A stretch of 64,000 bases of DNA from an uncultured Acidobacteriota bacterium. Lineage in GTDB: Bacteria > Acidobacteriota > Vicinamibacteria > Vicinamibacterales > 2-12-FULL-66-21. This document shows positions 1,918 to 57,668 of this stretch, piece by piece; the first letter of the stretch is position 1; the number at the start of each line of letters is the position of its first letter. Below the pieces are notes generated by a model. It worked only from the letters and a program-made list of their open reading frames with translations. It made no database searches and was not told the DNA's origin. The stretch lies in assembly GCA_963740275.1 (NCBI GenBank), contig CAVUDT010000003.1, forward strand, positions 205,898 to 269,897. Reading direction: 5' to 3'. Made by a program: the position numbers and the translations under genes.

Positions 1918-2019
1918 GGTTCCAAAGGTTCCAAAGGTTCCAAAGGTTCGGAACCCGGAACCCGGAACCCTTGGAACCTGGAACCGTTTAGACCGGAACC
2001 CTTAGAACCTTTGAGAACC
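1918..2019. repeat. inverted pair of tandem arrays: (GGTTCCAAA)x3 + GGTTC, then (GGAACCC)x3 and about 5 degenerate GRAACC units
   Basis: Read directly: GGTTCCAAAGGTTCCAAAGGTTCCAAAGGTTC|GGAACCCGGAACCCGGAACCCTTGGAACCTGGAACCGTTTAGACCGGAACCCTTAGAACCTTTGAGAACC. It fills the whole convergent spacer between stop 1905-1907 (+) and stop 2019-2021 (-). Confidence 0.9.
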
Positions 2020-5667: not shown

Positions 5668-5791
5668 GACCCACCTTGTGACGGCTGAGGGGGGGCGAAG
5701 GTTCCGGAAAACCACCATTCGTCCCTGCCGGCGGGGGCTTCGGCACGCCGGGGTTGCGGGTCTGGGCACTAGAAGAGGAGAGTTCGACCTG

Positions 5792-7665: not shown

Positions 7666-7677
7666 GGTCAAAAATGT

Positions 7678-7738
7678 CTGAATGCTGAATGCTGAATGCT
7701 GAAAATTTGGGTTCTAAGTTCTTTGTTCTGAGTTCTGA
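7678..7738. repeat. two adjacent heptamer arrays: (CTGAATG)x3 and (GTTCTRA)x4
   Basis: Read directly: CTGAATGCTGAATGCTGAATGCTGAAAATTTGG GTTCTAAGTTCTTTGTTCTGAGTTCTGA. It lies in the convergent spacer between stop 7665 (+) and stop 7742 (-) and is noticeably AT-richer than its surroundings. Confidence 0.9.
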
Positions 7739-7741
7739 GTT

Positions 7742-33025: not shown

Positions 33026-33238
33026 AAAAGGGGTGCGAAGGGGTGCGGAAGGGTGCGCGAGGGGGGTGCGGGGGGTGCAGGGGGGTGCGGAAAGGGTGCG
33101 GGGGGTGCGGGTAATGCGCATTTAGCGCGCGCACACTACCGCACCTTGAAGGGCGCCCTCTCGACCTGCCCGCACTCTTGAACTGCCTTCCGAACCCGCA
33201 CCCTTCCGCACCCCCCCGCACCCTTTTCGCACCCCTTT
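33026..33238. repeat. long imperfect hairpin built from about 9 G-rich GGGTGCGG-type units (33030-33112) and about 6 complementary CCGCACCC units (33139-33237)
   Basis: Read directly. The base of the stem is AAAGGGGTGCGAA (33027-33039) pairing with TTCGCACCCCTTT (33226-33238). The left arm meets the G>=3 N1-7 x4 G-quadruplex pattern. The structure starts 1 nt after the TGA of the activator gene and ends 6 nt before the mlaE ATG. Confidence 0.9.
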
Positions 33239-33243
33239 AGAGC

Positions 33244-34841: not shown

Positions 34842-34895
34842 GGGCGCCTCGCGGGCGCAGAGCGCCTGGTGACGTAAGGTGAGTGATCCGGAGCT

Positions 34896-36236
34896 ATGCA
34901 GAAGAATCGACTCGCGGCGGTCGGCGCGTTCGTCATCTTCAGTCTCCTGCTGTTCGCGGTCGGGCTGTTCCTGATCGGCGACCGCCGGATGATGTTCACC
35001 GAGACTTTCGACGTCTATGCCGAATTCAAGGAGATCGCCGGACTCCAGAACGGCGCCGTGGTCCGGGTCGCTGGCATGAACGCGGGCGAGGTCGAGACGA
35101 TCCAGCTGCCCGCCTCTCCTTCGGCCAGGTTCCGGGTCAGGCTGCGGGTGCGCGCCGATCTGCACCAGCTGATCCGGCTGGACTCGGTGGCGTCGATCCA
35201 GAACGACGGCCTGGTCGGCAACAAGTTCGTGCAGGTGGAGAGCGGCACGGACCAGTCGCCAGAGGTGCCGCCCCAGGGCACGATCCAGAGCCGCGAACCG
35301 TTCGATCTCGCCGACATGTTCCAGCGGATGACCGAGACCATCGACCTGGTCACCACCACCATCAAGGAGGTCAAGGTCGGCGTGAACGAGGCGTTGACGG
35401 CGGTCTCCGCCACCGCCACCGAGGCCCAGGGGCTGATTGCCGACATGGGCACCGAGATCCGCGCGATCACCGCCTCTTCGCAGAAGGTCGCCGGCGATCT
35501 GCAATCGATAATCGCCGGGGTACGCCAGGGACGGGGATCGATCGGCAAGCTCGTGACCGACGACGCGTTCTATGACCGGCTGAAAGCGATCGCCTCGCAG
35601 GCGGAGCAGGCCGTCGGCAATCTGCGTGAGGCCAGCGTCAGCGCCAAGGAAGCCATCAACGACTTCCGCGGCGAAAAGGGGCCGGTCCACGGCGTGGTTG
35701 GCGACCTGCAGCAATCGCTGACCGCGGCGAGAGAGACGCTGACTGACCTCGCCGAGAGTTCCGAGGCATTGAAGCGCAACTTCTTCTTCCGCGGATTCTT
35801 CAACAGCCGCGGCTACTTCGATCTCGACGACATCAGCATCGCCGACTATCGGAACGGGGTGCTGGAGACCAAAGAGCGGCGCGTGCTCAGGGTCTGGGTG
35901 AAGGCCGATTTCCTGTTCGACACCGCGCCCGGCACCCAGGGGCCGGAGCGGTTGACCGCCGAGGGGCGTGCCCGCCTCGATTCGGCGATGGCCCCATTCA
36001 TCCGCTATCCGCGCAATACTCCATTTGTGATCGAAGGCTATGGCACCGGCCCGACCGCGGATGTGCAGTTCCTGCTGAGCCGTACAAGGGCCCAACTCGT
36101 CCGCGACTACCTGGTTGGCAAGTTCGGTCTCGATGGCGCCCACGTGGCCACGATGGCGCTCGGCACCGAGGCCCCCGGAAGCCCCACGGACGGACGATGG
36201 GAGGGGGTCGCCCTGGCGATGTTCGTGCCGCGATGA
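34896..36236 (+). CDS. mlaD: MlaD/MCE-domain protein fused to a C-terminal OmpA-like domain
   Basis: Track ORF of 446 aa. N-terminal TM plus MCE (FDVYAEFKEIAGLQNGAVVRVAGMNAGEV), a long helical region, and a C-terminal VIEGYGTGPTADVQFLLSRTRAQLVRDYLV...LGTEAPGSP. Confidence 0.8.
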   Translation: MQKNRLAAVGAFVIFSLLLFAVGLFLIGDRRMMFTETFDVYAEFKEIAGLQNGAVVRVAGMNAGEVETIQLPASPSARFRVRLRVRADLHQLIRLDSVASIQNDGLVGNKFVQVESGTDQSPEVPPQGTIQSREPFDLADMFQRMTETIDLVTTTIKEVKVGVNEALTAVSATATEAQGLIADMGTEIRAITASSQKVAGDLQSIIAGVRQGRGSIGKLVTDDAFYDRLKAIASQAEQAVGNLREASVSAKEAINDFRGEKGPVHGVVGDLQQSLTAARETLTDLAESSEALKRNFFFRGFFNSRGYFDLDDISIADYRNGVLETKERRVLRVWVKADFLFDTAPGTQGPERLTAEGRARLDSAMAPFIRYPRNTPFVIEGYGTGPTADVQFLLSRTRAQLVRDYLVGKFGLDGAHVATMALGTEAPGSPTDGRWEGVALAMFVPR

Positions 36237-45657: not shown

Positions 45658-47776
45658 ATGAACCATCTCACCCGCGAGCGCAGCCCGTACCTGCTGCAGC
45701 ACGCCGACAACCCCGTCGACTGGCACGCCTGGAACGACGAAGCGTTCGCCCGGGCCCGCACGCGAGGACAAGCCGATCTTCCTGTCAATCGGTTATTCCA
45801 CCTGCCACTGGTGCCACGTGATGGCCCACGAGTCATTCGAGAGCGACGAGATCGCGGCCCTGCTCAATCGCGACTTCGTCTCCATCAAGGTGGACCGCGA
45901 AGAACGTCCCGACGTGGATCGCGTCTACATGTCGTTCGTCCAGTCGACCACCGGACAGGGGGGCTGGCCGATGACCGTCTTCCTCACTCCCGATCTGAAA
46001 CCGTTCTTCGGCGGCACCTATTTTCCGCCGACGTCGCGGTGGGGCAGGCCGGGGTTCGCTGACCTGCTCTCCGAGATCGCCCGGGTGTGGCAGGCCGACC
46101 GTCCGCGGGTCACCGAGGCAGCCGGCGAGCTGACCGAGCGGCTCAAGGCAGTGACGGTCGGCGCCCAGTCCGAGTCGGAGGTCGGCCCGCCCGAGGCACT
46201 CGACACCGCGGTAGCGCAGTTCGAGTCCGCCTTCGACCGGCGTCTTGGCGGGTTCGGGCAGGCGCCGAAGTTTCCACGTCCGTCAGAGCTGTTGTTCCTG
46301 CTGCGCGAGCACGCCCGCACCGGTTCGCAGCCGGCGCTGCAGATGGTCACCGCGACGCTCCGGGCGATGGCGGTTGGCGGGATGCGCGATCACGTCGGCG
46401 GCGGGTTTCACCGCTACTCGGTGGACGCGGAGTGGCGCGTGCCGCATTTCGAGAAGATGCTTTACGACCAGGCGCAGCTGACCCTGGCCTGCCTCGAAGC
46501 GGCGCAGGCTACCGGGGACGCCTTCTATGCCACCGTCGCGGAAGACACGCTCGAGTACATACTCCGCGAGATGACCAGCCCGGAGGGGGGCTTCTACTCG
46601 GCCGAGGATGCCGACAGCATCCCCCCGGCGGAGGCGGCGGAGTCGAGACCGCACAAGAAGGAAGGGGCGTTCTACGTCTGGAGCGACGAAGAGATCGCGT
46701 CGGTTCTGGGTGAGGACGCCGGCATCGCGCGCCGCCGATTCGGCATCGAGCCGGATGGCAACGCGCCCAGCGATCCGCAGGGTGAGTTCACCGGCATGAA
46801 CCTCCTCTACGTCGCCCAGCCGATCGCCGATGTCGCGGTACGCAGCGGCCGGCCGGAACCGGAAGTGATGGAGTCGCTGGCCAGGATCCGGCAGAAGCTG
46901 TTCGATGCCCGCGCCCGTCGTCCGCGCCCGCATCTGGACGACAAGGTGCTGACGGCATGGAACGGGTTGATGATCGCCGCCTGCGCACGCGCCGCGCGCG
47001 TCCTGCCCGCCAGCCCACGGGCTGACCGGTATCGCGCCGCCGCGGAACGTGCGGCCGCCTTCATCCGCGACACGCTCTGGCGCGCGCCAGATCTGACGCT
47101 GCTGCGGCGCTATCGTGACGGCGAAGCGGCGATCGAAGGCTATGCCGAGGACTACGCTTACTTGATCTGGGGGCTCATCGAACTGGTCCAGACCACTGGC
47201 CGGGCCGAGTGGCTGGAATGGGCGCTCACGCTGCAGCGTCGGCAGGACGAACTGTTCTGGGATGCGGCCGATGGCGCGTGGTTCAGCACCACGGGAAAGG
47301 ACGCCAGCGTGCTGCTCCGGCTGAAGGAGGACTACGACGGCGCCGAGCCGTCCGCGAGCTCCGTGTCTGCCCTCAACGTGTTGACGCTCGCGGACCTGAC
47401 CGGCGAAGAGGGCTTCCGGCAGAAAGCGGAACGGACCCTGGCCCGCTACGGCACACGGGTCGGCTCGGCTGGCCGGGTGATCCCGATGATGCTGTGTGCG
47501 CTGTCGCAATGGCATGCGAAGCCGATGCAGGTGGTGGTCGTCGGTGACCCCTCGTCGGCCGGGGTCAGAACGCTCGAGGCCGAGATCGCCGCGCGTTATC
47601 TGCCGTTCGCCGTCCACGTACCGGTGGGCCCCGGCGAACAGGAAGCCCTGACCAGGCTTCTGCCTTTTGTCGGCGGCATGAACGCAGGCAGCGGCGGGGC
47701 TGTCTACGTGTGTCGTGATTTCGTCTGTCAGCAGCCGGTCGACTCGATCGAGGCTCTGCGGCGGGAGCTGATGTGA
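45658..47776 (+). pseudogene. DUF255/YyaL-type thioredoxin-domain protein with (alpha/alpha)6 barrel; one extra base near 45760-45765
   Basis: [34 protein letters not shown] is in track 45658..46062. The conserved [27 protein letters not shown]... continues in the +1 frame (track 45818..47776). Confidence 0.85.
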
Positions 47777-47795
47777 GGGCCGGGAGCGGGCGGTC

Positions 47796-48570
47796 GTGAG
47801 CGGGCCGGTGACCCTGGCGTTCAGCCCCGATGGGTCACGGGCCGCGCTCACAATCTTTCATCCCAAGGGCAACATCGTCACCGCCGGCATGGTGGCGGCG
47901 CTGCGATCCGCGCTGGACAGCCTGGCCGACGAAGTTCACCTCAAGCTGATCACGCTGGAAGGGGCGGGCCCGGACTTCAGCTTCGGGGCCAGCATCCCCG
48001 AGCACACGGCCAACGAGATCGGAGGGGTGCTGCCGGAGATGCACGCCCTGATCGTCGACCTTCTCGAGGCTACCGCTCCGACCGCCGCGGTGGTTCGGGG
48101 CCGGTGCTTCGGCGGCGGCTTCGAGCTCGCGCTGGCCTGCGATTTCATCTTCGCCGATCGAGGCGCGACCTTTGCGCTCCCGGAGATCAAGCTCGGGGTG
48201 TTTCCGCCGGCGGCGTCGGCGCTGCTGCCGCCGCGGGTGGGCTACGCGCCGGCAACCCGGGCGATTCTCACCGGGGAGGTACTCGAAGCGACCGAATGGT
48301 GCACCAGAGGTCTTATCGAGATGGTGGCGGACGACGGCGAGCTTGCCGCCGCTGTGGACCGCTGGTTCGCGGGCCATCTCGCGCCGAAATCGGCGGCCGC
48401 GCTCCGTCACGCCGCCGCCGCCGCCCGGATGGGCCTCGTGGCCCACGTCCGGGAACGTACTGCCGCAACTCGAGCGGCTATACTTGAACGACCTGATGCG
48501 CACCCACGACGCGTCCGAAGGGATCGACGCGTTCATGTCCAGGCGCACGCCCTCGTGGACGGACCGCTGA
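47796..48570 (+). pseudogene. enoyl-CoA hydratase/isomerase family protein; one extra base near 48448-48458
   Basis: Track 47796..48920 carries GAGPDFSFGASI and GRCFGGGFELALACD up to MGLVAHVRE. The family C-terminus VLPQLERLYLNDLMRTHDASEGIDAFMSRRTPSW is in the +1 frame (track 48172..48570). Confidence 0.75.
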
Positions 48571-48572
48571 CC

Positions 48573-48920
48573 ATGACGTTCGAAGTCGAAATCGTGCTGC
48601 GCGAACGCAACTTCGCGGTGACCGAGCAGCTTCAGCACCCGACCGCTCCGGCGACGTGGACCGACCGCGACGTCGAGGCGGTGCTCAAGGCGATCCTGCT
48701 GGCGATCGACCGGGCGAAGAACCCGGCCGCGGCAGACCGATACGTGGCGCTGCGTGGTTTCAGCTGGATCGTCGAACCGGCAGACGGCGGCGTCGTCATT
48801 GCGATCGAGATCCCGATGGGGGCGGCGGTCGCGGGTCCCTTCGACATCGCCCCGGCCCGGCTCGATGCGATGATCACCCGCGTGCTCGCTGCGGCCCGCC
48901 CGAAAGCGGTCGTCCATTAG
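48573..48920 (+). CDS. hypothetical protein (115 aa)
   Basis: ATG 48573 lies 2 nt after the reconstructed hydratase stop and gives MTFEVEIVLRERNFAVTEQ... This is the last third of track ORF 47796..48920. No family recognised. Confidence 0.45.
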   Translation: MTFEVEIVLRERNFAVTEQLQHPTAPATWTDRDVEAVLKAILLAIDRAKNPAAADRYVALRGFSWIVEPADGGVVIAIEIPMGAAVAGPFDIAPARLDAMITRVLAAARPKAVVH

Positions 48921-49087
48921 CCCCCCTGGGCGGACAGTTTTTTCCCTGCCGTTTCAGGACTGCGTGCGTTTGCCGATGACATTTTTGGGTTTGCACGGTT
49001 TCGCGCGGAGATTCGCGAATTTCCCTGCGGCACCCTCCTTGCCTCAGCAGCTTCTGGCATGATGTCCGCGTCGGGCTCGATCAGGTC

Positions 49088-49759
49088 ATGAAGCTTCCAT
49101 ATCGCATCCTTGTCCTCGAAGACGACATCAACACCCTTTCCGGGATGGTGGAGCTGTTGCGCGAGGTCAATTACCAGGTGACCGGCGCTTCGACCTACGA
49201 CACGGCGAAGCAGCTGCTCGCGCGCGGCGCCTACGACCTGTTCATCACCGACGTCCGGCTGCGCGGGTTCAACGGCCTCAACCTGGTGCGACAGAGCAAC
49301 AGCGACCATCCCGACATGGCGATCCTCATCATGACCGGCTTCGACGAGCCGATGATGGAGATCGAAGCGGCGCGTTACGGAGCAGAGTTCGTCCGCAAGC
49401 CGGTGAGGCCGCGCGATCTGCTCGACATCGTCACCCGCTGCCTGTCGGCCGTCCGCCGCGAGCGCCGCTGGAACCGCAAGCGGGTGCTCGGTGGTTTCCG
49501 CGTCGTCGCCGACGGCAAGCCGGCCGCAGTCGTGGATGTGTCGTACGGCGGGCTGCGACTCGAGATGCCGCACGCCGGCCATGTGCCGGTCTCGTTCGAC
49601 GTCGAGGTCGCCGGCATCGGCCTGCATCTCTCGGTGGATACGGTGTGGTCGAAAGCGTCCGATGATGGCGGGACGCTGGTGTGCGGCGCGGCGCTGGCGG
49701 CCGAGTCCACGCCCGCGGCCCAGACCTGGCGCGCGATCGTCGACCGATTGACGGCCTGA
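49088..49759 (+). CDS. response regulator with a C-terminal PilZ-like domain (REC-PilZ)
   Basis: Track ORF of 223 aa. REC: ILVLEDDINT, DLFITDVRLRGFNG. C-terminal half: RRERRWNRKRV ... VVDVSYGGLRLEM, matching the RxxxR and D-x-S-x-x-G c-di-GMP-binding pattern of PilZ. Confidence 0.75.
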   Translation: MKLPYRILVLEDDINTLSGMVELLREVNYQVTGASTYDTAKQLLARGAYDLFITDVRLRGFNGLNLVRQSNSDHPDMAILIMTGFDEPMMEIEAARYGAEFVRKPVRPRDLLDIVTRCLSAVRRERRWNRKRVLGGFRVVADGKPAAVVDVSYGGLRLEMPHAGHVPVSFDVEVAGIGLHLSVDTVWSKASDDGGTLVCGAALAAESTPAAQTWRAIVDRLTA

Positions 49760-49809
49760 ACCGGCCGACCGCGCCCGGGAGGCGCGGACGCGCGGTGTAT
49801 GCTTTCGAC

Positions 49810-51393
49810 GTGAAACGCCGCCTTCTTCCGGTCGCTACCGCGATCCTCGCCGCCCTCTCGCTCGACCCCGTACCTTCCGCACAACAACCGCCTCCCTTCA
49901 CTCTCGACGAGCTCACCATCACGCAGTTGCAGGAGGGGATGGCCGCCGGGCGCTATACCGCCCGGCAACTCGTCGACAGCTACACGCGCCGGATCGAGGA
50001 GATCGACCGGAACGGCCCGGCGCTGCGCTCGGTGATCGAGATGAACCCGGAGGCCGGCTCGATCGCGGACGCACTGGACGCCGAGCGGAAGGCAGGGAAG
50101 GTCAGGGGGCCGCTCCACGGCATCCCGGTGCTGATCAAGGACAACATCGACACCGGCGACCGGATGATGACCACCGCCGGATCGCTGGCGCTGGAAGGGG
50201 CCAGCGCGCCGCGCGATTCCTCCGTCGCCGCCCGGCTGCGGGCTGCCGGTGCCGTGATCCTGGGCAAGACCAACCTCAGCGAGTGGGCCAACTTCCGCTC
50301 GACGAAATCTACCAGCGGATGGAGCGCGCGTGGCGGTCAGGTGCGTAATCCGTACGTCCTCGACCGGAATCCGTGCGGCTCGAGCTCGGGCACCGGTGCG
50401 GCGATTGCGGCGAACCTGGCGTCCGTCGGCGTCGGTACCGAAACCGACGGCTCGATCGTATGTCCGTCATCGGTCAGCGGGCTGGTCGGGATCAAGCCGA
50501 CCGTCGGCCTGATCAGCCGCGCCGGGATCATCCCGATCTCGAAGACGCAGGACACCGCTGGTCCGATGACCCGAACCGTCGCCGATGCCGCCGCGGTACT
50601 CACCGCGCTGGCCGGTCCGGATCCGGCCGATCCCGCGACCGCTCGGGCCCGCGTTGCCGACTACCTGAAGGCGCTCGACGCCGGAGCCTTGAAGGGCGCA
50701 CGGATCGGTATCCCTCGTAAACGGTATTTCGGCTACAGCCCGAAGACCGACGAGGCGGTGAACGAAGCGATCCGGGTCATGCGCCAGCAGGGCGCGGTGA
50801 TCGTGGACCCGGCCGACATCCCGACGGCGGCCGGTCTGGAGGACTGCGAGTTCGAGGTTTTGCTCTACGAATTCAAGGACGGCCTCAACGCCTACCTGCG
50901 GGCGCGCGGACCCGGCGGCAGGGTCAAGTCGCTCGAGGATCTGATCGCTTTCAACGCGAAGGAGGCCGCGCGTGAACTGCCGTTCTTCGGGCAGGAGATC
51001 CTCGAGATGGCGCAGCGCAAGGGTCCGCTGACATCCGCTGCCTACCGAAAGGCGATGACCACCTGCCGAACGAGGTCGCGCGCCCTGGGCATCGACGCGG
51101 TGATGACCCGGCATCGGCTCGACGCTCTGGTGGCGCCGAGCGGAGGGCCGGCCTGGCCAATCGACCTGGTGAACGGTGATCACTTTCTCGGCGCCAGCTC
51201 GACTCCTGCGGCGATCGCCGGATACCCGAACATCACCGTGCCGGCGGGTTACGTCCAGGAACTGCCGATCGGGATCTCGTTCATCGGCCGCGCCTGGAGC
51301 GAAGCGCGGCTGATCGGGCTCGCCTACGCCTACGAGCAGGCGACGAAACACCGCCGGGCGCCGCGGTTTCTACCGACGCTGGAGCCCCGATAG
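49810..51393 (+). CDS. amidase-signature family amidase (exported)
   Basis: Inside track ORF 49681..51393. GTG 49810 gives (M)KRRLLPVATAILAALSLDPVPSAQ. Contains GIPVLIKDNIDT, GKTNLSEWANF and NPCGSSSGTGAAIAANL..GTETDGSIVCPS. Confidence 0.85.
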   Translation: MKRRLLPVATAILAALSLDPVPSAQQPPPFTLDELTITQLQEGMAAGRYTARQLVDSYTRRIEEIDRNGPALRSVIEMNPEAGSIADALDAERKAGKVRGPLHGIPVLIKDNIDTGDRMMTTAGSLALEGASAPRDSSVAARLRAAGAVILGKTNLSEWANFRSTKSTSGWSARGGQVRNPYVLDRNPCGSSSGTGAAIAANLASVGVGTETDGSIVCPSSVSGLVGIKPTVGLISRAGIIPISKTQDTAGPMTRTVADAAAVLTALAGPDPADPATARARVADYLKALDAGALKGARIGIPRKRYFGYSPKTDEAVNEAIRVMRQQGAVIVDPADIPTAAGLEDCEFEVLLYEFKDGLNAYLRARGPGGRVKSLEDLIAFNAKEAARELPFFGQEILEMAQRKGPLTSAAYRKAMTTCRTRSRALGIDAVMTRHRLDALVAPSGGPAWPIDLVNGDHFLGASSTPAAIAGYPNITVPAGYVQELPIGISFIGRAWSEARLIGLAYAYEQATKHRRAPRFLPTLEPR

Positions 51394-51534: not shown

Positions 51535-52056
51535 ATGGCTGGAATGAATTCGATGCTGTTGGCCGTGCTTCTCCTGGCTCCGGTTCTCGTCCAGACCGGT
51601 GAGCTGACCTTTACTGCTCCGGCGGCGTGGAAGCCGCGGCCGGCGGCGAGCACGATGCGGGTCGCGGAGTTCGTGGTGCCGAAGACCGCACCCGACACCG
51701 AGGATGCGGAAGTGATCGTGTATTTCTTCGGCGGCACCGGCGGAAGCGTCGACGCCAACATCGAGCGCTGGGTCGGGCAGTTTCAGCAGCCGTCCGGCGG
51801 CGCGGCCACCGGCAGCCGCGGCGCGCTGACGGTCGGGAAATTGAAAGTGACGACCGTCGACGTGAGCGGAACCTACGTCGCGGAAGTCCGTCCGGGCGCG
51901 GCGGAGCGACACAACAAACCGAACTACCGAATGCGCGCCGCCGTCGTCGAAACCCCGCGAGGCCCGTACTTCGTCAAGTTCACCGGCCCCATCGCCACCG
52001 TGACCCAGGCCTCCGCCGCCTTCGACCAGTTCATCAGAGGGCTGGGGTTCAAGTAG
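51535..52056 (+). CDS. hypothetical exported protein
   Basis: Track ORF of 173 aa. Signal-like N-terminus MNSMLLAVLLLAPVLVQ (alternative start 51544). No family recognised. Its TAG is the first unit of the following heptamer array. Confidence 0.5.
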   Translation: MAGMNSMLLAVLLLAPVLVQTGELTFTAPAAWKPRPAASTMRVAEFVVPKTAPDTEDAEVIVYFFGGTGGSVDANIERWVGQFQQPSGGAATGSRGALTVGKLKVTTVDVSGTYVAEVRPGAAERHNKPNYRMRAAVVETPRGPYFVKFTGPIATVTQASAAFDQFIRGLGFK

Positions 52057-52150
52057 CTGCCAGCTGCCAGCTACCAGCTACCAGCTACCAGCTACCAGCT
52101 GCCAGCTGCCAGCTACCAGCTGCCAGCTACCAGCTATCAGCTGTCAGCTG
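52053..52150. repeat. 14 tandem heptamers YCAGCTR
   Basis: Read directly: GTAGCTG CCAGCTG CCAGCTA x4 CCAGCTG x2 CCAGCTA CCAGCTG CCAGCTA x2 TCAGCTG x2. The CAGCTG core is itself palindromic, so the array is self-complementary in many registers. Confidence 0.92.
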
Positions 52151-52189
52151 TGCTAGCCGGTAGCCCACCGGCCTCCGTCACCTCACAGC

Positions 52190-52312
52190 GCCCCTCCGCC
52201 TTGGCCGCACTCCTCCGCACCCCTCCGCACCCCTCCGCACCCTCCGCACCCCCCGCACCCTTTTGCGCACCCTTCCGCACCCCCGCACCCGCCGCACCCT
52301 TCCGCACCCCCA
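52190..52312. repeat. about 10 tandem CCGCACC(C)-type units with 7-10 nt period (G-rich GGGTGCGG in the sense of the adjacent minus-strand permease)
   Basis: Read directly: CTCCGCACCCCTCCGCACCCCTCCGCACCCTCCGCACCCCCCGCACCCTTTTGCGCACCCTTCCGCACCCCCGCACCCGCCGCACCCTTCCGCACCCCC. This is the same unit as the right arm of the 33026-33238 structure. It ends about 6 nt before the permease stop at 52318. Confidence 0.92.
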
Positions 52313-52317
52313 CGTCC

Positions 52318-54729
52318 CTACTGCTGCCTGAGCGCGACCATCGGATCCGCCTTGGTGGCCTTGAATGCCGGCAGCGCACAGGCGGCCAGCGCGACGGCGA
52401 GCTGGATCATCGCGGTCACCGAGAAACTGAGCGGATCCGCCGGGCTGACGCCGAACAGGGTGCGGGAGAGGAGCCGGGCGGCGACATACGCCGCGATCGA
52501 GCCGAGCGCGAGCCCGGGCAAAACGAGACTGATGCCTTCGCGGATCACCGAACCGAGCACGCGGCCGCGGGTGGCGCCGAGCGCGACCCGGATCCCGAAC
52601 TCACGGGTCCGCTGCAGCACGGTGAAGTAGAGCACGCCGAAGAGGCCGACCGTTGCGAGGATGGTTGCGAGCACGCCGCAGATGAGGAAGAACCCGGCCG
52701 CCGTTCGGGACGGCCACAGCTGCAGCTTCATCAACTCGGTCACGGTGTCCACCCGGACCGGCACATTCTCGTCGAGTGCACGCATCTGGTCCCTGATCGG
52801 TGCGAGCAGATTCCGGGGGGTGGCGTTGCTGCGGATGATCACGGTGATGCCACCCGCCCAGGATTCGGGCGACATCGGACGATAGACGTAGGGAACCGTC
52901 CCGTCGGCGGCATACCGATTCCTGATGTCGCGCGCCACCCCGATGACCGTCACCCGGCGTCCCTCGTCGCCCAGGAGAAAAGTGCGACCCACGGCGGCGG
53001 ATGTCCCCGGCCACATCTGTCGCGTCAGATGTTCGCTGACGATGACTACGTCGTCCCTGCCCATGTCTGCCGCGGTGAAGTGCTTGCCGTCGAGCAAGGG
53101 CACGCCCAGCGCCTCGAGGTGGCCGGGCGACACGGAGTAGACCACTGCCAGCCGGCAGTCGACGACCGTGCAATCGGACTCGCCGGCGCTGTACTCGAGG
53201 CGCTTCGGTGTCCCGAACGAAATCGGGATGCGATCCGCGGCCCCGACCGCGACGACGCCAGGCAATGCGCGCAGGCGGGCCTCGAGGTCCTCCACCAGCA
53301 GCCGCGCCGAGGCAGGCTGATATCCGTGCATCGACGGCTCCACCTGCAGGACCACGGTGTTCGCCGTGTCGAAGGCGTTGTCGAATGCCGAGTTCTTCAG
53401 GAAGCTGCGCACGAGCAGGAGTGCCGCGACCAGGAAGAGCGTCGAACCGGCGACCTGCGCGACGACCAGCGCGTTGCGGACCCGTGAGGGTGGTCCGCCG
53501 AGAATCGACTCGAGACGGAATGAGGCGAGCACGTTCTGTCTGGTCGCCTGCAGAGCGGGGAGCACCGCCGGGGCGACGCCGGCGATCAGCACCAGCAGCA
53601 CGGTGAAACCGACCAGGGTCCGGTCGATCCCCAGGTGAATGCGCTGCGGAATCGGCGCCGGCAGGCTGAAGGTGGCCAGCAGGTCGCCGCTCCAGGCCGC
53701 GAGTACGAGCGTGGCGCTTCCGGCCAGCACCGCCAGCACGATCCCTTCGGTGGTCAGCTGGCGCAGGATGCGGGCGCGGCCGGCGCCGAGCGCCATTCGC
53801 ACGCCGATCTCGCGTTGACGCTCGCTGGCGCGGGCCATCAGCAGCGCCGCGACGTTGAAGCAGGCCAGCACCAGGACGATGGCGACGATCGCGAGCGCCA
53901 GCCACGCGTACTTGGCGATTTCACGGACCTCCGGGTGCCCTTCGTCCATCGGATAGAAACGGGCGATGCGCTCCGCGCCGGCTTCCTTCGATGCCGGCGC
54001 CCATTGCCGGCTGATCGCGTCGAGCTCGGCCACCGCCTGGGCACGCTCGACGCCGTTCCGCAGGTGACCGAACATCAGAAGACTATCGTCGTCCTGCAAC
54101 GCGGAGGGGAGGTTGAGGACATCGCGGCGAGCCAGCGGCAGCCACATATCGGGTGAGAACAGCCCGCCCCGTCCCTGGTAGTCGTCCGGCAGGACCCCCA
54201 CCACCGAAAAGGTCCGGGTGTTGACCACGATCGTCTGGCCGCCGAGGCTGCGGGGAGCGCCGAGCGTCTCTTTCCAGAATCGGTGCGAAACGACCACCGG
54301 CAGGTCGGTGCCGGTCAGGTCGTCGGCGGTGAACACCCGCCCGATCTCGGGGCGGGCGCCGACCGTGTTCAGGTAGTTGGTGCTGACCAGGGCCGACCAG
54401 GCCTGGCGTGCGCCATTCGCGGTATGCAGGCTGACCGGCAGCCGGCCCTCGGCGGCGATGGCATCGAACGACGTGCTGGCGCTGGCCAGGTGTTCGAACT
54501 CTTTCTGTGTCGCCTGGCCATAGGCGGCCTTGCCTTCGATCCGGATCCAGCCCACGCGGTCAGCGTTGTCGACACGGAACGGCCGCAACACGAGCGCGTT
54601 GATCGCATTGAACGCCACCGTGGTCACGCCGATCCCGAGTGCCAGCGTCAGCACCGCGATCAACGAGAAGCCCGGCCGGTTGATCAACGCCCGGACGGCG
54701 TAGCGAAGGTCGAGGCGAAGGGCGTCCAT
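52318..54729 (-). CDS. ADOP-family duplicated FtsX/MacB-like permease (second copy, orphan)
   Basis: Track ORF of 803 aa. N-terminus MDALRLDLRYAVRALINRPGFSLIAVLTLALGIGVTTVAF. Two FtsX modules. C-terminus ATKADPMVALRQQ. Confidence 0.88.
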   Translation of the reverse strand: MDALRLDLRYAVRALINRPGFSLIAVLTLALGIGVTTVAFNAINALVLRPFRVDNADRVGWIRIEGKAAYGQATQKEFEHLASASTSFDAIAAEGRLPVSLHTANGARQAWSALVSTNYLNTVGARPEIGRVFTADDLTGTDLPVVVSHRFWKETLGAPRSLGGQTIVVNTRTFSVVGVLPDDYQGRGGLFSPDMWLPLARRDVLNLPSALQDDDSLLMFGHLRNGVERAQAVAELDAISRQWAPASKEAGAERIARFYPMDEGHPEVREIAKYAWLALAIVAIVLVLACFNVAALLMARASERQREIGVRMALGAGRARILRQLTTEGIVLAVLAGSATLVLAAWSGDLLATFSLPAPIPQRIHLGIDRTLVGFTVLLVLIAGVAPAVLPALQATRQNVLASFRLESILGGPPSRVRNALVVAQVAGSTLFLVAALLLVRSFLKNSAFDNAFDTANTVVLQVEPSMHGYQPASARLLVEDLEARLRALPGVVAVGAADRIPISFGTPKRLEYSAGESDCTVVDCRLAVVYSVSPGHLEALGVPLLDGKHFTAADMGRDDVVIVSEHLTRQMWPGTSAAVGRTFLLGDEGRRVTVIGVARDIRNRYAADGTVPYVYRPMSPESWAGGITVIIRSNATPRNLLAPIRDQMRALDENVPVRVDTVTELMKLQLWPSRTAAGFFLICGVLATILATVGLFGVLYFTVLQRTREFGIRVALGATRGRVLGSVIREGISLVLPGLALGSIAAYVAARLLSRTLFGVSPADPLSFSVTAMIQLAVALAACALPAFKATKADPMVALRQQ

Positions 54730-54767
54730 TCGGTACCTGTAGACGGCTCAGGGGCTGGGGGAGTTCC

Positions 54768-55279
54768 GTCACGTGCGATGTGCTACGTGCTACGTGCTGG
54801 GTGCCGATGTGCGACGTGCGACGTGCGGTGCTGTGTGCGATGTGCGGTGCTACGTGCGACGTGCGGTACGTGCGACGTGCGACGTGCGAAGTGCTGCGTG
54901 CGAGCGTGCGGTGCGAAGTGCTGTGTGCGGTGCGAAGTGCTGTGTGCGGTGCGAAGTGCTGTGTGCGGTGCGAGGTGCTGTGTGCGGCGCGAGGTGCTGT
55001 CGGCGGTGCTGTGTGCGGTGCAGGTATTGTGTGCGGTGCGACGCGGCCGTGCCGTGCCACCTGCTGCGCGCGGGCCGCACGTGGCACAGCACACAGCACG
55101 CACGTAGTACCTATCACCGCACGTCGCACGTGCACGCACGTCGCACGTAGCACGCACGTCGCACCGCACGTCGCACGTAGCACGCACGTGGCACGCAGCA
55201 CCGCACGTAGCACCTAGCACCGCACGTAGCACATCGCACGTACGCACGCCGCACGTAGCACCTAGCACCTAGCACGTGT
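54768..55279. repeat. about 510-nt composite repeat: G/T-rich arm of GTGCNNN heptamers (including a 19-mer GTGCGGTGCGARGTGCTGT x5 at 54906-55000) and a C/A-rich arm of NNNGCAC heptamers, mirrored about 55060-55080
   Basis: Read directly. The left arm starts CACGTGCGATGTGCTACGTGCTACGTGC and the right arm ends GCACGTAGCACCTAGCACCTAGCACGTG. The apex is GTGCCAC (55054-55060) / GTGGCAC (55081-87). It fills the spacer between the aminotransferase stop (55280) and the permease start (54729). Confidence 0.92.
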
Positions 55280-56356
55280 CTAGAGTTCATCAACAGCTCT
55301 GGCAACCCGCGTGAGACCCTCGGTGAGCACCTCGGTCGGCCCGCTGAAGCCGAGGCGGAAGTGCGACGGGGCATCGAAGAAGCGGCCGGGGACGATGGCG
55401 GTGTCGTGCTCGGCGAGCAGGCGTTCGGCGAAGCGCGAAGTGTCGGCGACACCCTTGATCCGCGGGAAGACGACCGTGCCTCCCTCGGGCGTGACGTATT
55501 CCAGCTCAGGTCGTCCGGCCAGGAAGGCGTTGACGATCGGCGCTGTTCGTCGCCAGCAGAGCCCGCGCGCGGGCGGTCAGCGTTTCTAGATGTTCGAAGG
55601 CCAGGACGCCGAGGCGTTCGGCGACGATCGATCCGGTGCCATCGATCACATCGCGGGCGCGGCGGAGACGCGCCGCAACGTCGGTCGACGAGAGGACCCA
55701 TCCGCAGCGCAACGCGGCCAGGCCGTACGATTTGGTGAGGCTGCTGGTGACGATGAAGGTGTCGCCGTTGAGCGCCGCGGTCGGCACTTCGCCGCTGATC
55801 GTGTCGAGGTACACCTCGTCCACGAGGACGTGCGCCCCCTGCGCGTCCGCCAGGCGTCCGACCTCGAGAAGAGCGGACTGGCTGGCCAGCGCCCCCGTCG
55901 GGTTGTGCGGGCTGGTGACGACGATCAGCTTCGTGCGCGGCGTCATCGCCGCCGCGATCCGTGCCGGGTCGAGGGCGAAGCGGTCGTCGAAGGTCCGGTC
56001 GTAGCGGACGGTGTTAGCGCCCAGCAACCGCGGCGCCCCCATGAGCGGATCGTATCCGGGCCGTTCGACCAGCACATCGTCTCCGGGGGAGAGCAGGGCC
56101 GCGCACACGAGGAAGTTCGCTCCGGACGCCCCCTGGGCGGTGGTGACCTGTGAGGCAGGCATGCGGTAGCGGCGTCCGATCGCCTCGAGCAGCGGCGCGT
56201 AGCCGTTGTCGTTGCGGCCGGTCAATGCCAGGGCGTGGCCGCGCCGGGCAGGTCCTCGAGCGTGCAGGCGAGCACGTTGCTGATCGCCAGGTCGAAGCGC
56301 GCGGCGGGCCGCGTCTTCGCCCACTCCATGTACGGGGCGTGAAAGCGTAGGGTCAT
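55280..56356 (-). pseudogene. class I/II pyridoxal-phosphate-dependent aminotransferase; two frame breaks (about 56240-56250 and about 55530)
   Basis: MTLRFHAPYMEWAKTRPAARFDLAISNVLACTLEDLPGA is in the tail of track 56222..57241. GHALALTGRNDNGYAPLLEAIG...SLTKSYGLAALRCGW...LATNSA is track 55506..56414. IVNAFLAGRPELEYVTPEGGTVVFPRI...FRLGFSGPTEVLTEGLTRVARAVDEL is in a third frame ending in TAG at 55280-55282. Confidence 0.8.
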
Positions 56357-57668
56357 GAGCGGCGTGAATACCACCAGTAAACCGGCAAGCCGAGCGCGAG
56401 CAGCAGCGCGCCACGGAGCGCGCTCGACGGATCGTCGCGAACGACGCTGAGGACGACGGCGGCCGAGACGAGCACGAAGAGGATCTGGACGACAGGATAT
56501 CCCGGGGCGCGGTAGGCGTCCGCCGGGCGTTCGGCCACCGGGTTCCGGCGGCGGAAGACCAGGACGGTGCCGACGGTGAGGCCGAAGAAGATCCAGTCCG
56601 CGAAAACGACGTAGTTGAGCAGGCGTTCGTAGCTGCCGGTCGCCGCGAGAATGCAGGACCAGGTGGACTGGATGACGATCGCCAGCCATGGCGTCCGGTA
56701 GATCGGATGCAGCCTGGCGAGCCCCGGGAGGAACACGCCGTCGGCCGCCATCGCGTAGTAGACCCGCGTTGGCGCGAGGATCGCGAGATCGAGGAAGCCG
56801 AAGGTCGAGATGGCGATCGCCGCGGTGACGAAGAGGTCTCCCCAGGTGCCGAACAGTCCTGCCGCCGCTTTCGAGGCCGGGGTGGTCGTGGCCGCGAGCC
56901 CTTCGAGACCGAGCGCGCGCAGGTAGACGGCGTTGACCAGCACGTAGATGATGACGACCGCGACCGTCCCGGCCAGCAGGCTGAGTGGCAGGTTGCGGCG
57001 GGGGTTCTCGATCTCCTCGGCGACGTAGTTCGCGTTCTGCCATCCGCCGTAGGCGAAGAGGATGGGGATCAGCGCCGCGCCGAAGCTGACGGCGGTGCCG
57101 AGGCCGGTCGAGGTCGATGCGCGCGACGCCGTCCACCAGCCGGGGGCTGCCCGGCGCCAGCGCGCCGGCGACGATCAACGCCGCGAGCGCCGCGACCTTC
57201 AGCACGACGAGGACGTTGAGGACGCGGCTGCCCGGCTTCACGCCGAAGAAGTTGATGATCGAGAGCAGGACGACGGCGGCGATGGCGACCGGTACGGCGG
57301 CGATGTCCGGGCGTCCGACGAGGCGGAGCGCGTAGTTGGCGAAGGTGATGGCGACTGCCGCGATCGCGCCGCTCTCGATCAGCGCGAGCAGCGCCCAGCC
57401 GTAGAGGAAGCCGGCGACCGGGTGGTAGGCGTCCCGGAGGTAGACGTATTGTCCGCCGGCCCGCGGGAACAGCGCGCCGAGCTCGGCGTAGGAGTAGGCG
57501 CCTGCGAGGGCGATCGCGCCGCCCGCGATCCATGCCGCCGAGGACCAGCGTCGGCGAGTCGAGCCGCTGCGCGACGATGTAGGGGTTGATGAAGATGCCG
57601 GACCCGATGATGCCGCCGATCACCACCATCGTCGCGTCGAACGGCCCGAGCGCGCGCTTGAAGGTCAC
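56353..57668 (-). pseudogene. APC-family amino-acid permease; two frame breaks (about 57535-57542 and about 57142-57146)
   Basis: (M)TFKRALGPFDATMVVIGGIIGSGIFINPYIVAQRLDSPTLVL is track 57069..57668. AAWIAGGAIALAGAYSYAELGALFPRAGGQYVYLRDAY...FFGVKPGSRVLNVLVVLKVAA is in the frame of track 56222..57241. STGLGTAVSFGAALIPILFAYGGWQNANYVAEEIENPRRNLP...WWYSRRS is in the frame of track 56353..56943. Confidence 0.8.

What the first reader, a model, noticed from the sequence alone, without database searches (positions are those of the whole stretch)
54768..55279. A ~510-nt GTGC/GCAC mirror-skewed repeat block between two same-strand genes
The left ~280 nt are made only of G/T-rich heptamers (GTGCGAC, GTGCTAC, GTGCGGT, GTGCTGT). 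A higher-order 19-mer GTGCGGTGCGARGTGCTGT is repeated 5 times in tandem (54906-55000). At about 55060-55080 the strand composition flips, at the apex GTGCCAC...GTGGCAC. The right ~200 nt are the complementary C/A-rich heptamers (GTCGCAC, GTAGCAC, CTAGCAC). The outermost ends are complementary (CACGTGC... / ...GCACGTG). As RNA or extruded DNA this could form a hairpin or cruciform more than 200 nt long, with many alternative registers. Much of it alternates purine and pyrimidine (ACGTGCGACGTGCG), which gives it Z-DNA potential. It lies after the aminotransferase stop and directly upstream of the second ADOP permease. That permease's other end carries the 52053-52312 arrays, so the permease gene is bracketed by the two largest arrays in the window. 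All ORFs drawn through the block are translations of the repeat.
Basis: seen in the sequence. Interest (0 to 1): 0.75.

Follow-up and report, generated by a model that had tools for sequence, protein, structure and literature searches.

The report
Giant inverted heptamer-repeat hairpin block
A real 512-base stretch of short GTGC-type repeats and their mirror image sits between two genes of a soil Acidobacterium; it is an oversized, fast-changing example of the poorly understood "heptamer repeat pairs" already known from other bacteria, not a gene or an assembly error.

Summary
Window 54768-55279 holds 40 GTGC-anchored units (modal spacing 7 nt). A quasi-palindromic apex follows, then 30 GCAC-anchored units. 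Either strand folds into an imperfect duplex of about 200 bp (RNA -335 kcal/mol, z -11).

The genes lie on the minus strand. The block starts 1 nt after the aminotransferase stop codon and ends 38 nt before the ADOP (MacB/FtsX) permease ATG.

Two other assemblies of close strains carry the same block, about 46 nt longer; the differences are mostly whole-unit indels. Orthologues at 78% and 61% identity have only a 60- or 38-nt spacer. The block is therefore young, dispensable and hypervariable.

It is not unique. The host is a Vicinamibacterales bacterium with about one short-unit array per 9-13 kb. GTGCGAC arrays occur in many soil phyla. The GTGC arm lies 5' of the GCAC arm in 19 of 20 pairs, and the G-rich strand abuts the nearest ORF. 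The same unexplained rules were published for GGGNATC heptamers of Xanthomonas and Nostoc.

Best reading: a hyper-expanded convergent heptamer-SSR pair, made by slippage and inverted duplication. Its transcript would be a long intercistronic hairpin that probably modulates permease expression. That functional step is inferred by analogy with the Haemophilus hmw/RNase III case and was not tested. I file it as a new member of a known kind; interest is moderate.

The parts
55074..55279 (-). Arm proximal to the aminotransferase. It is C/A-rich on the + strand (30 GCAC-anchored units: GTCGCAC, GTAGCAC, CTAGCAC) and G/U-rich on the minus-strand transcript, where it is the 5' arm. It starts 1 nt after the stop codon.
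55053..55087 (.). Apex quasi-palindrome GTGCCAC...GTGGCAC. It is identical in all three strain variants. Because the arms are unequal, the terminal loop of the RNA minimum-energy fold falls at 55023-55031.
54768..55052 (-). Arm proximal to the permease. It is G/T-rich on the + strand (40 GTGC-anchored units: GTGCGAC, GTGCTAC, GTGCGGT, GTGCTGT) and C/A-rich on the minus-strand transcript, where it is the 3' arm.
54906..55041 (.). Higher-order 19-nt repeat GTGCGGTGCGAAGTGCTGT (7.6 copies, of which 5 are near-perfect at 54906-55000). This is the main site of copy-number difference between strains.
54730..54767 (-). 38-nt non-repeat leader between the block and the permease ATG. It holds CCGTCTACAG (54737-54746), which is conserved upstream of the start in orthologues L118 and L136.
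52318..54729 (-). ADOP-type permease, 803 aa, with MacB_PCD + FtsX domains twice. This is the gene downstream of the block.
55281..56414 (-). Class I/II aminotransferase (Aminotran_1_2), the gene upstream of the block. Its stop TAG is at 55281-55283. The window copy has a 1-nt insertion near 55538 that breaks the frame. The gene is intact (364 aa) in L135, where the stop is CAG and the ORF runs 6 codons into the repeat.
52172..52310 (-). Single-armed array of the same GTGC-core class, (GGGTGCGG)n on the permease sense strand. It starts 8 nt after the permease stop.
52055..52150 (+). (AGCTRCC)n heptamer array, 12.6 copies. Its first unit overlaps the stop codon of the convergent 173-aa gene.
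33028..33238 (+). Second hairpin-forming pair of the class, (GGGGTGCG)n ... (CGCACCCC)n, with the same polarity. It fills the whole spacer between the NtrC-like gene stop and the MlaE start. It is absent from the orthologous spacer of L138 (85% nt identity).

Best explanation
**What it is.** The block is a hyper-expanded 'convergent pair' of heptanucleotide simple-sequence-repeat arrays. One array of GTGC-anchored units is followed by its reverse complement.

**Shown**
- It lies in what was ancestrally a spacer of about 40-60 nt inside a co-directional amino-acid-permease / aminotransferase / ADOP-permease gene string, and it begins 1 nt after the aminotransferase stop codon.
- It is absent from more distant orthologues.
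- It differs between close strains mostly by whole-unit insertions and deletions.
- The outer 96 nt of its arms are true mirror images.
- It obeys the polarity and position rules of a large class of arrays found in Vicinamibacterales and other soil phyla.

**Inferred origin.** Replication slippage, for which 7-nt units are unusually prone, and an inverted duplication built it. Slippage continues to resize it.

**Inferred effect.** No promoter-like site lies between the aminotransferase gene and the permease ATG, so the permease is probably transcribed through the block. [quoted passage not shown] Such a duplex would be a substrate for double-strand-specific RNase III and a barrier to 3' exonucleases. 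It would uncouple the permease from the upstream genes and make its expression depend on arm length. This is what was shown experimentally for the (ATCTTTC)n 5'-UTR hairpin of Haemophilus influenzae hmw1A. Whether this effect is selected for or merely tolerated is open.
For: - **Anatomy and fold:**
- **Three strain variants.** The window block is 512 nt; L135 and L119 are about 558 nt. Their indels of 3-36 nt, mostly whole repeat units, lie in the inner arms. The apex and outer arms are identical, and flanks are about 99% identical.
- **Empty sites.** L118 (78% nt identity) has a 60-nt spacer and L137 (61% aa identity) a 38-nt spacer. L136 (65% aa identity) has an unrelated 182-aa gene there.
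- **Second array.** The hairpin array at 33028-33238 is likewise an insertion just after a stop codon, relative to L138.
- **Mirror order.** The in-register complementarity of the outer arms exceeds unit-shuffled controls (z = 4.5).
- **Class membership.**
  - Period 7 dominates tandem repeats in 0.89 Mb of related loci (225 of 510 blocks).
  - The GTGC arm precedes the GCAC arm in 19 of 20 pairs (p = 4e-5).
  - The G-rich strand's 5' end abuts the nearest ORF 43:16.
  - The sense strand is G-rich after stop codons 29:9.
  - Arrays are convergent-enriched and divergent-depleted (p = 0.002-0.004).
- **Published precedent for the class.** The same rules, convergent pairs (70-75 per genome) and length variation were reported for GGGNATC heptamers in Xanthomonas and Nostoc (PMC4692102).
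- **Slippage.** That paper also cites the proposal that heptamers favour polymerase slippage.
- **No promoter or terminator.** No sigma-70-like promoter or canonical terminator was found in or around the block.
- **Functional precedent:** PMC12721329.
Against: - There is no direct RNA evidence. The only metatranscriptome that holds the locus gave patchy contigs and none across the block.
- Promoters of Acidobacteriota may not match the sigma-70 consensus, so an internal promoter is not excluded.
- The fold energy does not depend on unit order (z = -1.1), and the arms change length independently. Nothing therefore shows selection for a particular structure.
- The block is absent from orthologues, so any function is not required by this gene pair.
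- Slippage alone explains neither the strict polarity nor why GTGC-core units recur across phyla (24% of non-ascertained short-unit arrays).
- The window assembly has indel errors nearby, so exact unit counts may be slightly off.
Confidence: 0.55

Rival explanations
1. The block is a purely neutral or selfish by-product. It is a runaway microsatellite tolerated in a non-coding gap, with no cis effect that matters to the cell. The polarity and position rules only reflect where such arrays are not harmful: no G-rich, GUG-rich or SD-like sense sequence before start codons, and no disruption of divergent promoters.
For: The block is absent from orthologues at 61-78% identity, and the 33-kb array is absent at 85% nt identity. 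Unit-level turnover is rapid. The fold energy is independent of unit order. Many single-armed arrays exist (about 80 against 20 pairs). Units are very diverse. Before start codons the sense strand is GCAC-type 13:2.
Against: Both arms of a pair share one locus-specific unit even when 130-200 nt of unique DNA separates them (L139, L140). The G-rich-after-stop rule (29:9) holds where no start codon is nearby. A 200-bp RNA duplex 38 nt from a start codon is unlikely to be without effect.
Confidence: 0.25
2. The block is a selected, bidirectional, factor-dependent transcription terminator or insulator. It would separate the aminotransferase and permease transcription units in a high-GC genome that lacks canonical U-tract terminators.
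For: The class is enriched at 3' ends: convergent 24 against 13.5 expected, and 25 of 87 arrays lie within 10 nt of a stop codon. The hairpin is very stable on both strands. No canonical terminators were found nearby.
Against: No U-tract follows the 3' arm. The polarity (G-rich 5' arm, C-rich 3' arm) is, from my recollection of typical E. coli terminators and not tested here, the opposite of the usual arrangement, where a C-rich 5' arm and a G-rich 3' arm precede the U-tract. A full terminator here would silence the permease unless a promoter lies in the remaining 38 nt, and none was detected. Orthologues keep a 38-60 nt spacer, which suggests co-transcription.
Confidence: 0.12
3. This is the first reader's idea: a DNA-level structural element. 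Cruciform extrusion or Z-DNA would buffer supercoiling, or the block would be a periodic binding array for a nucleoid protein that recognises GTGC every 7 bp.
For: DNA hairpin folding is strong. 62% of the block lies in alternating purine-pyrimidine runs of 7 nt or more. The orientation rule is independent of ORF direction, which is easiest to state at the DNA level. The GTGC core is over-represented among units.
Against: Arrays are depleted between divergent genes, which by the twin-domain model is where negative supercoils should accumulate. Alternating runs reach at most 17 nt, and other units of the class do not alternate. Spacing varies from 4 to 13 nt, which is poor for a phased protein array. 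From general knowledge of E. coli, long cruciform-prone palindromes are attacked by SbcCD.
Confidence: 0.06
4. The block is a mobile element (MITE- or REP/BIME-like) that inserted after the stop codon.
For: Relative to orthologues it looks like a clean insertion into a short spacer. It is palindromic and extragenic, and it has a REP-like gene-context bias.
Against: The apex and loop sequences are unique in about 1.1 Mb of related DNA. No target-site duplication is seen at either insertion. Arms are built of 7-nt tandem units whose type differs from locus to locus. Strain variation is by unit slippage.
Confidence: 0.02

Closest known systems
Convergent GGGNATC / GGGGA(C/T)T heptamer repeat pairs of Xanthomonas and Nostoc (Rehm et al. 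2015, PMC4692102)
   Same: Both are tandem 7-nt units in non-coding DNA. Both include inverted pairs in 'convergent' orientation able to form stem-loops. In both, the G-rich strand is on the coding strand within 50 bp after stop codons and on the non-coding strand before start codons, irrespective of ORF orientation. Both are under-represented between divergent ORFs. Both keep their position while their length varies between relatives. Function is unknown in both (searches compared).
   Different: The unit here is GTGC + 3 variable nt, with no regular GGG tracts, so no G-quadruplex is expected in this block. The host is Acidobacteriota (Vicinamibacterales), and the same unit occurs in many soil phyla. 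The size is extreme, about 70 units and 512 nt, against a preferred 4 units and a maximum of 26. A 19-nt higher-order repeat is superimposed.
Haemophilus influenzae hmw1A (ATCTTTC)n 5'-UTR hairpin processed by RNase III (PMC12721329)
   Same: Both are heptamer SSRs directly upstream of a gene. In both, the repeats form one arm of a long hairpin and the repeat number varies between strains. This case gives a tested mechanism by which such an element sets expression.
   Different: In hmw the partner arm is a G-rich non-repeat region. The locus is a classical phase-variable adhesin of a host-adapted pathogen, and transcription and RNase III cleavage were demonstrated. Here both arms are arrays, the gene is a permease of a free-living soil bacterium, and neither transcription nor cleavage was tested.
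Cyanobacterial heptanucleotide tandem repeats (Calothrix STRR type) and TAACTGA repeats of Beggiatoaceae, cyanobacteria and Bacteroidetes (PMC4679880)
   Same: Several distinct heptamers are tandemly repeated in intergenic DNA of large genomes. They have a patchy cross-phylum distribution and a position bias near ORF ends.
   Different: TAACTGA sets are short (2-6 copies, up to 43), almost all direct, and end 1 nt before start codons. Only one 'indirect' set was reported in the Beggiatoa genome. The name STRR and the Mazel 1990 reference come from my memory; the papers I read cite only the three Calothrix heptanucleotides.
REP/BIME extragenic palindromes of enterobacteria and pseudomonads
   Same: Both are extragenic and palindromic, lie after stop codons and inside operons, and are rare between divergent genes. 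From general knowledge, REP elements protect upstream mRNA from 3' exonucleases, so the two may work alike.
   Different: REP units are 20-40-nt conserved palindromes dispersed in hundreds of copies and are tied to RAYT transposases. Here the building block is a 7-nt tandem unit that differs from locus to locus, and the apex is unique.

Membership tests
Intergenic heptameric SSR arrays with convergent pairs (Mrazek LSSR class; Rehm 2015) | Head-to-tail tandem units of 7 nt | tested here: met
   TRF finds period 7 in both arms. The modal GTGC-GTGC and GCAC-GCAC spacing is 7. Units of 4-13 nt are mixed in.
Intergenic heptameric SSR arrays with convergent pairs (Mrazek LSSR class; Rehm 2015) | Non-coding location, under-represented between divergent ORFs | tested here: met
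   The block lies between a stop codon and a start codon. For the class, context counts were tandem 39, convergent 24 and divergent 7, against 42-44, 13.5 and 12-15 expected. These rest on crude GC3-based ORF calls.
Intergenic heptameric SSR arrays with convergent pairs (Mrazek LSSR class; Rehm 2015) | The G-rich strand has its 5' end next to the nearest ORF, and pairs are convergent (G-rich arm first on either strand) | tested here: met
   This block has the GTGC arm then the GCAC arm on both strands. For the class the counts are 19:1, 43:16 and 29:9 after stop codons.
Intergenic heptameric SSR arrays with convergent pairs (Mrazek LSSR class; Rehm 2015) | Position conserved but length variable between close relatives | tested here: met
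   The window block is 512 nt, against about 558 nt in L135 and L119; the indels are mostly whole units.
G-quadruplex-forming GGGNATC family specifically | Four or more regularly spaced G-tracts of 3 or more G | tested here: not met
   Units such as GTGCGAC, GTGCTAC and GTGCGGT carry no GGG tracts. The separate array at 33028-33110, (GGGGTGCG)n, would qualify.
hmw-type SSR hairpin / RNase III rheostat | A heptamer SSR forms an arm of a long hairpin in the leader of the regulated gene, and repeat number varies | tested here: met
   The block ends 38 nt upstream of the ATG. The fold is predicted. Strain variation is shown.
hmw-type SSR hairpin / RNase III rheostat | The repeat is transcribed as part of the mRNA, and RNase III cleaves the hairpin | not testable with these tools
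   The only RNA run (X21) gave patchy contigs and none across the block.
REP/BIME | A conserved 20-40-nt palindromic unit dispersed in many copies | tested here: not met
   The apex and loop are unique in about 1.1 Mb of related sequence. Arms are 7-nt tandem units that differ between loci. Association with a RAYT transposase was not tested.
MITE | Terminal inverted repeats plus a target-site duplication, with multiple near-identical copies | tested here: not met
   No duplication is seen at the insertion borders when compared with the empty sites. No second copy was found.
Intrinsic (Rho-independent) terminator | A GC-rich hairpin immediately followed by a U-tract | tested here: not met
   The sequence after the 3' arm on the minus strand is GACGGAACTCCCCCAGCC. 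The consensus scan found none at the block.
CRISPR array | Repeats of 23-50 nt separated by unique spacers of similar length | tested here: not met
   The units are contiguous 7-nt units with no spacers.
Described structured RNA families (Rfam) | A match to any Rfam 15 covariance model at its gathering score | tested here: not met
   There were 0 matches in the whole window and no tRNA or tmRNA.

The most novel reading that the evidence does not exclude
Convergent heptamer arrays are footprints of a directional, DNA-level synthesis process shared across bacterial phyla, not products of passive slippage. Three findings fit this. The G-rich strand nearly always runs 5'->3' away from the flanking ORF, whatever that ORF's orientation. 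Both arms carry the same locus-specific unit, even across 130-200 nt of unique DNA. Whole pairs appear de novo inside spacers of about 10-60 nt next to stop codons. One possible process is reiterative extension of 3' ends during repair of breaks or gaps at the ends of transcription units. That would resemble telomere healing followed by head-to-head fusion. The GTGC core would then be a recognition or priming signature of the enzyme involved.
Probability: 0.05. Interest if true: 0.85.

Novelty: new member of a known kind. Interest (0 to 1): 0.5.

Why it matters
Heptamer repeat arrays have been known since 2007 to be over-represented in large, high-GC bacterial genomes, yet their origin and function remain unexplained. 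This locus is an extreme and well-documented case. It is about 70 units long. There are three strain variants and three 'empty' orthologous sites (L118, L137, L136). It belongs to a GTGC-core family that seems very abundant in soil metagenomes: repeat words reach depths of 100-2000x against 5-20x for the flanks. The family spans Acidobacteriota, Gemmatimonadota, Planctomycetota, Chloroflexota, Actinomycetota and Proteobacteria.

The polarity rule found here (GTGC arm before GCAC arm in 19 of 20 pairs, and G-rich sense strand after stop codons 29:9) matches the rule published for an unrelated heptamer in Xanthomonas and Nostoc. That points to a general, still unknown constraint or mechanism.

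There is also a practical side. Blocks of this kind break short-read assemblies, as the Logan contigs end inside this one. They can be mis-called as ORFs, and the stop codon of the upstream gene can lie inside the array.

Tried and rejected
- **Exact-protein look-ups.** Look-ups of three window proteins found nothing. The locus was reached instead through homologue searches.
- **Overlap with fetched loci.** BLAST of the window against the 117 pattern-matched genome loci found no overlap, so the window's own genome was not among them. tBLASTn against them gave no taxonomic signal. Taxonomy came from named Vicinamibacterales hits at 81-83% identity.
- **Known RNA genes.** Rfam and tRNA scans of the window were empty.
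- **Long reads.** No Nanopore run was available.
- **RNA evidence.** The only RNA run was uninformative.
- **Phage link.** Only 6 viral contigs hold the 19-mer, each with 3-4 units. I rejected a phage association.
- **Literature.** An exact-string search for GTGCGAC arrays found no paper, and no paper on such arrays in Acidobacteria turned up.
- **Remnant of a coding repeat gene.** Rejected, because orthologues have short spacers there.
- **Assembly artefact.** Rejected, because three assemblies are collinear.
- **Selection for a specific fold.** Not supported, because unit-order shuffling leaves the free energy unchanged.
- **Polarity for non-GTGC units.** An early mid-split measure was too noisy to use. 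I replaced it with motif-based and skew-based counts.
- **Break-in-the-middle origin.** I considered a double-strand break in the middle of the spacer followed by growth of both arms. The whole 33-kb array is inserted as one piece at the stop-codon edge of the spacer. This does not favour that simple version.
Full report
**1.

- The left arm (54773-55052) has 40 GTGC and no GCAC. The right arm (55074-55275) has 30 GCAC and one GTGC.
- The commonest spacing is 7 nt (23 of 39 and 18 of 29 intervals), mixed with units of 4-13 nt.
- TRF reports period-7 arrays in both arms and a 19-nt higher-order repeat at 54906-55041. Its first five copies (54906-55000) are near-perfect.
- GC skew flips sign around 55050-55100.
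- The outer 96 nt of the arms are 83% complementary in register.
- The minus-strand RNA of 54750-55300 folds at -334.8 kcal/mol. Dinucleotide shuffles give -259 +/- 6.6 (z = -11.4). The fold has 201 pairs and a longest perfect helix of 16 bp.
- As DNA the plus strand folds at -216.6 kcal/mol (z = -10).
- The pattern (GTGCNNN)3GTGC occurs six times in the window, all inside the block, against none expected.

**2. Context**

The flanking genes are on the minus strand. They are an amino-acid permease, then a class I/II aminotransferase whose stop TAG is at 55281-55283. The block follows, then 38 nt of unique leader. The last gene is an 803-aa duplicated MacB_PCD/FtsX ('ADOP') permease starting at ATG 54729.

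- No sigma-70-like promoter or U-tract terminator is detected in or near the block.
- No Rfam family or tRNA is present.
- An NtrC-like protein of the window has its best named relatives (81-83% identity) in Vicinamibacterales MAGs. The host is therefore a soil Acidobacteriota bacterium.
- Soil and rhizosphere metagenomes hold the flanks.

**3. It is real DNA, young and unstable**

Two other assemblies carry the same locus. L119 is a contig from JGI's metagenome collection. L135 comes from an ENA assembly, whose 104-kb contig encodes a permease 100% identical to the window's.

- Flanks are about 99% identical. The two array regions are the local hot spots of difference.
- The three-way alignment shows an identical apex and identical outer arms. 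Indels of 3-36 nt, mostly whole repeat units, lie in the inner halves of both arms.
- The block is 512 nt in the window and about 558 nt in the others. Minimum free energies are -335, -308 and -302 kcal/mol.
- In L119 and L135 the aminotransferase stop is CAG, and the ORF runs six codons into the repeat.
- More distant orthologues have no block. L118 (78% nt identity) has 60 nt between the two genes. L137 (61% aa identity, with the same synteny including the PNPOx, amino-acid-permease and amidase genes) has 38 nt. L136 (65% aa identity) has an unrelated 182-aa gene with a signal peptide.

So the block is neither an assembly artefact nor the remnant of a coding repeat gene. It was inserted or expanded within a short, probably operonic, spacer.

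**4. It is one of many**

*Within the window.* There are four other intergenic short-unit arrays.
- 1918-2009: (GGTTCCAAA)n/(GGAACC)n, a hairpin between convergent genes.
- 7673-7741: (AATGCTG)n followed by (GTTCTGA)n.
- 33028-33238: (GGGGTGCG)n...(CGCACCCC)n, a hairpin that fills the NtrC-MlaE spacer.
- 52055-52310: (AGCTRCC)n followed by (CCGCACCC)n, between convergent genes.

The 33-kb hairpin is likewise absent from the orthologous spacer of L138 (85% nt identity). There the whole 210 nt is one insertion placed right after the stop codon.

*In related, unascertained loci.* About 86 kb of Vicinamibacterales-like loci (L135-L140) hold some ten array loci. Three more are inverted pairs with locus-specific units: GTGCRAC, AATGCTG and GGTTCAGGR.

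By the record titles, about 50 are from Acidobacteriota, often 5-8 loci per MAG. The rest come from Actinomycetota, Proteobacteria, Planctomycetota, Chloroflexota, Bacteroidota/Rhodothermales, Gemmatimonadota, Patescibacteria, Methylomirabilota and Trueperaceae. Many of these carry arrays of 5-32 units.

*In metagenomes.* In four soil and rhizosphere metagenomes the repeat words reach assembler depths of 100-2000x, against 5-20x for the flanks.

*In phages.* Phage contigs hardly carry the 19-mer at all.

**5. Rules of the class**

I ran TRF on 0.89 Mb (the window plus the 117 loci). Period 7 accounts for 225 of 510 tandem blocks. Many units lack GTGC, but 41 of about 171 non-ascertained short-unit arrays have a GTGC/GCAC core.

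- **Pair polarity.** When a GTGC array and a GCAC array lie within 300 nt of each other, the GTGC array comes first in 19 of 20 cases (p = 4e-5). The exception is a different, REP-like element of Porticoccus.
- **Degenerate partners.** 'Single' arrays sometimes have a degenerate partner. It lies on the same expected side in 11 cases against 1-2.
- **Gene context.** Using crude GC3-based ORF calls, arrays are enriched between convergent genes and depleted between divergent ones (24 and 7, against 13.5 and 12-15 expected, p = 0.002-0.004). 25 of 87 arrays start within 10 nt of a stop codon.
- **Strand orientation.** The G-rich strand has its 5' end next to the nearest ORF 43:16. Within 40 nt of a stop codon the sense strand is G-rich 29:9. 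Before start codons the sense strand is GCAC-type 13:2.

All of these features were published for GGGNATC and GGGGA(C/T)T heptamers of Xanthomonas and Nostoc. That includes 70-75 'convergent' inverted pairs per genome, conserved positions with variable lengths, and no identified function (PMC4692102). That paper also relays two earlier points: heptamers are the over-represented long SSR class in large high-GC genomes, and 7 nt may match the polymerase footprint and so favour slippage.

No paper mentioning GTGCGAC arrays, or such arrays in Acidobacteria, was found in the searchable library.

**6. How the block was probably built**

I shuffled the order of units within each arm.
- The in-register complementarity of the real arms then stands out (score 45 against 27 +/- 4, z = 4.5). 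The outer arms are therefore true mirror copies, which indicates an inverted duplication or concerted evolution.
- The total folding energy does not stand out (-322 against -314 +/- 7.5). The giant hairpin is a generic consequence of having complementary unit types, with many registers.
- Later growth is local and independent in each arm. An example is the 19-mer array next to the apex, which has more copies in L119 and L135.
- Apex and loop sequences are unique in about 1.1 Mb of related DNA, and no target duplication is seen. This argues against a MITE- or REP-type mobile element.

**7. What it most likely does**

The ancestral arrangement is a 38-60 nt spacer, and no promoter-like site was found. 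The permease is therefore probably still transcribed from upstream, through the block. The transcript would carry an imperfect duplex of about 200 bp that ends 38 nt before the start codon.

The best-documented precedent is H. influenzae hmw1A. There a (ATCTTTC)n heptamer SSR is transcribed in the 5'-UTR and forms one arm of a long hairpin. RNase III cleaves that hairpin, and expression and even repeat-number change depend on it (PMC12721329).

I therefore commit, at moderate confidence, to a slippage-built convergent SSR pair whose RNA acts as an intercistronic processing and stability element, with arm length tuning permease output. The identity and evolutionary dynamics are shown. Transcription, cleavage and any selective value are inferred.

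The rivals are: a purely neutral by-product, a factor-dependent bidirectional terminator, a DNA-level cruciform, Z-DNA or protein-binding array, and a mobile element. They are listed with their tests. The Z-DNA/cruciform idea is weakened in three ways. The class is depleted between divergent genes, where by the twin-domain model negative supercoiling should be strongest. Alternating purine-pyrimidine runs are short (at most 17 nt). Sister arrays have units that do not alternate.

**8. What remains unexplained**

The strict polarity is unexplained, as is the sharing of one unit by both arms even across 130-200 nt of unique DNA (L139, L140).

RNA-level filters can explain part of it: avoidance of G-rich, GUG-rich or SD-like sequence before start codons, and of C-rich, rut-like sequence just after stop codons. 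A directional DNA-level process is not excluded. Neither is an outward-facing, chi-like orientation that would help repair of hairpin cleavage.

**9. Verdict**

The feature is real and striking, but it is a new, very large member of a known and poorly understood class. It is not a new kind of element. Interest is moderate (0.5). Its value lies in offering a clean natural series (empty site, 512 nt, 558 nt) and a cross-phylum polarity rule that can be tested.

Noticed in passing
window 55538 (aminotransferase) and 56353-57668 (amino-acid permease): The window copy of the aminotransferase is split by a 1-nt insertion near 55538. Contigs of three soil metagenomes leave that base out. The amino-acid permease upstream is also broken into ORFs of 196 and 199 aa. 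In the close strain L135 both genes are called intact (364 and 437 aa). This points to indel errors in the window assembly or to recent pseudogenes.
   Followed up: partly
window 51535-52310, compared with L118 2970-3129 and L137 5688-6197: The small 173-aa secreted-looking gene next to the permease is inverted in the window lineage relative to two orthologous loci. It is convergent with the permease here and co-directional there. The (AGCTRCC)n and (CCGCACCC)n arrays sit exactly at that junction.
   Followed up: partly
window 33028-33238: A second hairpin-forming pair, (GGGGTGCG)n...(CGCACCCC)n, fills the whole NtrC-like/MlaE spacer. Its regular G4 tracts give it G-quadruplex potential. It is absent from L138 (85% nt identity), where the genes are almost adjacent.
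   Followed up: yes
window 33241-36236, compared with L139 and L140: In two relatives at about 83-85% nt identity the NtrC-like gene is followed by YtxH-family genes. In the window, and in L138, an MlaE/MlaD transporter operon lies between them. This is a gene-content difference next to an array.
   Followed up: partly
window 54737-54746; L118 about 152-161; L136 about 1783-1792: CCGTCTACAG lies 6-9 nt upstream of the permease start codon. It is conserved in orthologues at 65-78% identity, and no Shine-Dalgarno-like sequence is present. It may be a translation or regulatory signal. It is not enriched elsewhere in the window (2 matches against 3 expected).
   Followed up: partly
window 47000-50000 compared with L135: Divergence between the window and the close strain L135 rises from about 1% to 13-17%, with many indels, over about 3 kb (the region after the DsbH-like thioredoxin gene). 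It is 0.2-1% in the permease. This is either a recombination tract or a low-quality stretch.
   Followed up: no
window 1918-2009 and 7673-7741: Two further short-unit arrays start right after stop codons. (GGTTCCAAA)3 with (GGAACC)n forms a small hairpin between convergent genes, one hypothetical and one a PAS histidine kinase. (AATGCTG)4 followed by (GTTCTGA)n follows a redoxin gene. The AATGCTG unit recurs as an inverted pair in L140 at 8920-8997.
   Followed up: partly
L017, L063, L070 (Porticoccus sp. W117): Three loci of this cultured gammaproteobacterium share a dispersed, REP-like element (GTCGCAC)3-4 GCTAAAACC... in the opposite polarity (GCAC first). It seems to be a different kind of repeat that merely contains the same heptamer.
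   Followed up: no
window 3157-6000: The first ADOP-type permease of the window (947 aa, MacB_PCD + FtsX) has no comparable array at either end. This supports the view that arrays are not specifically tied to ADOP genes.
   Followed up: partly
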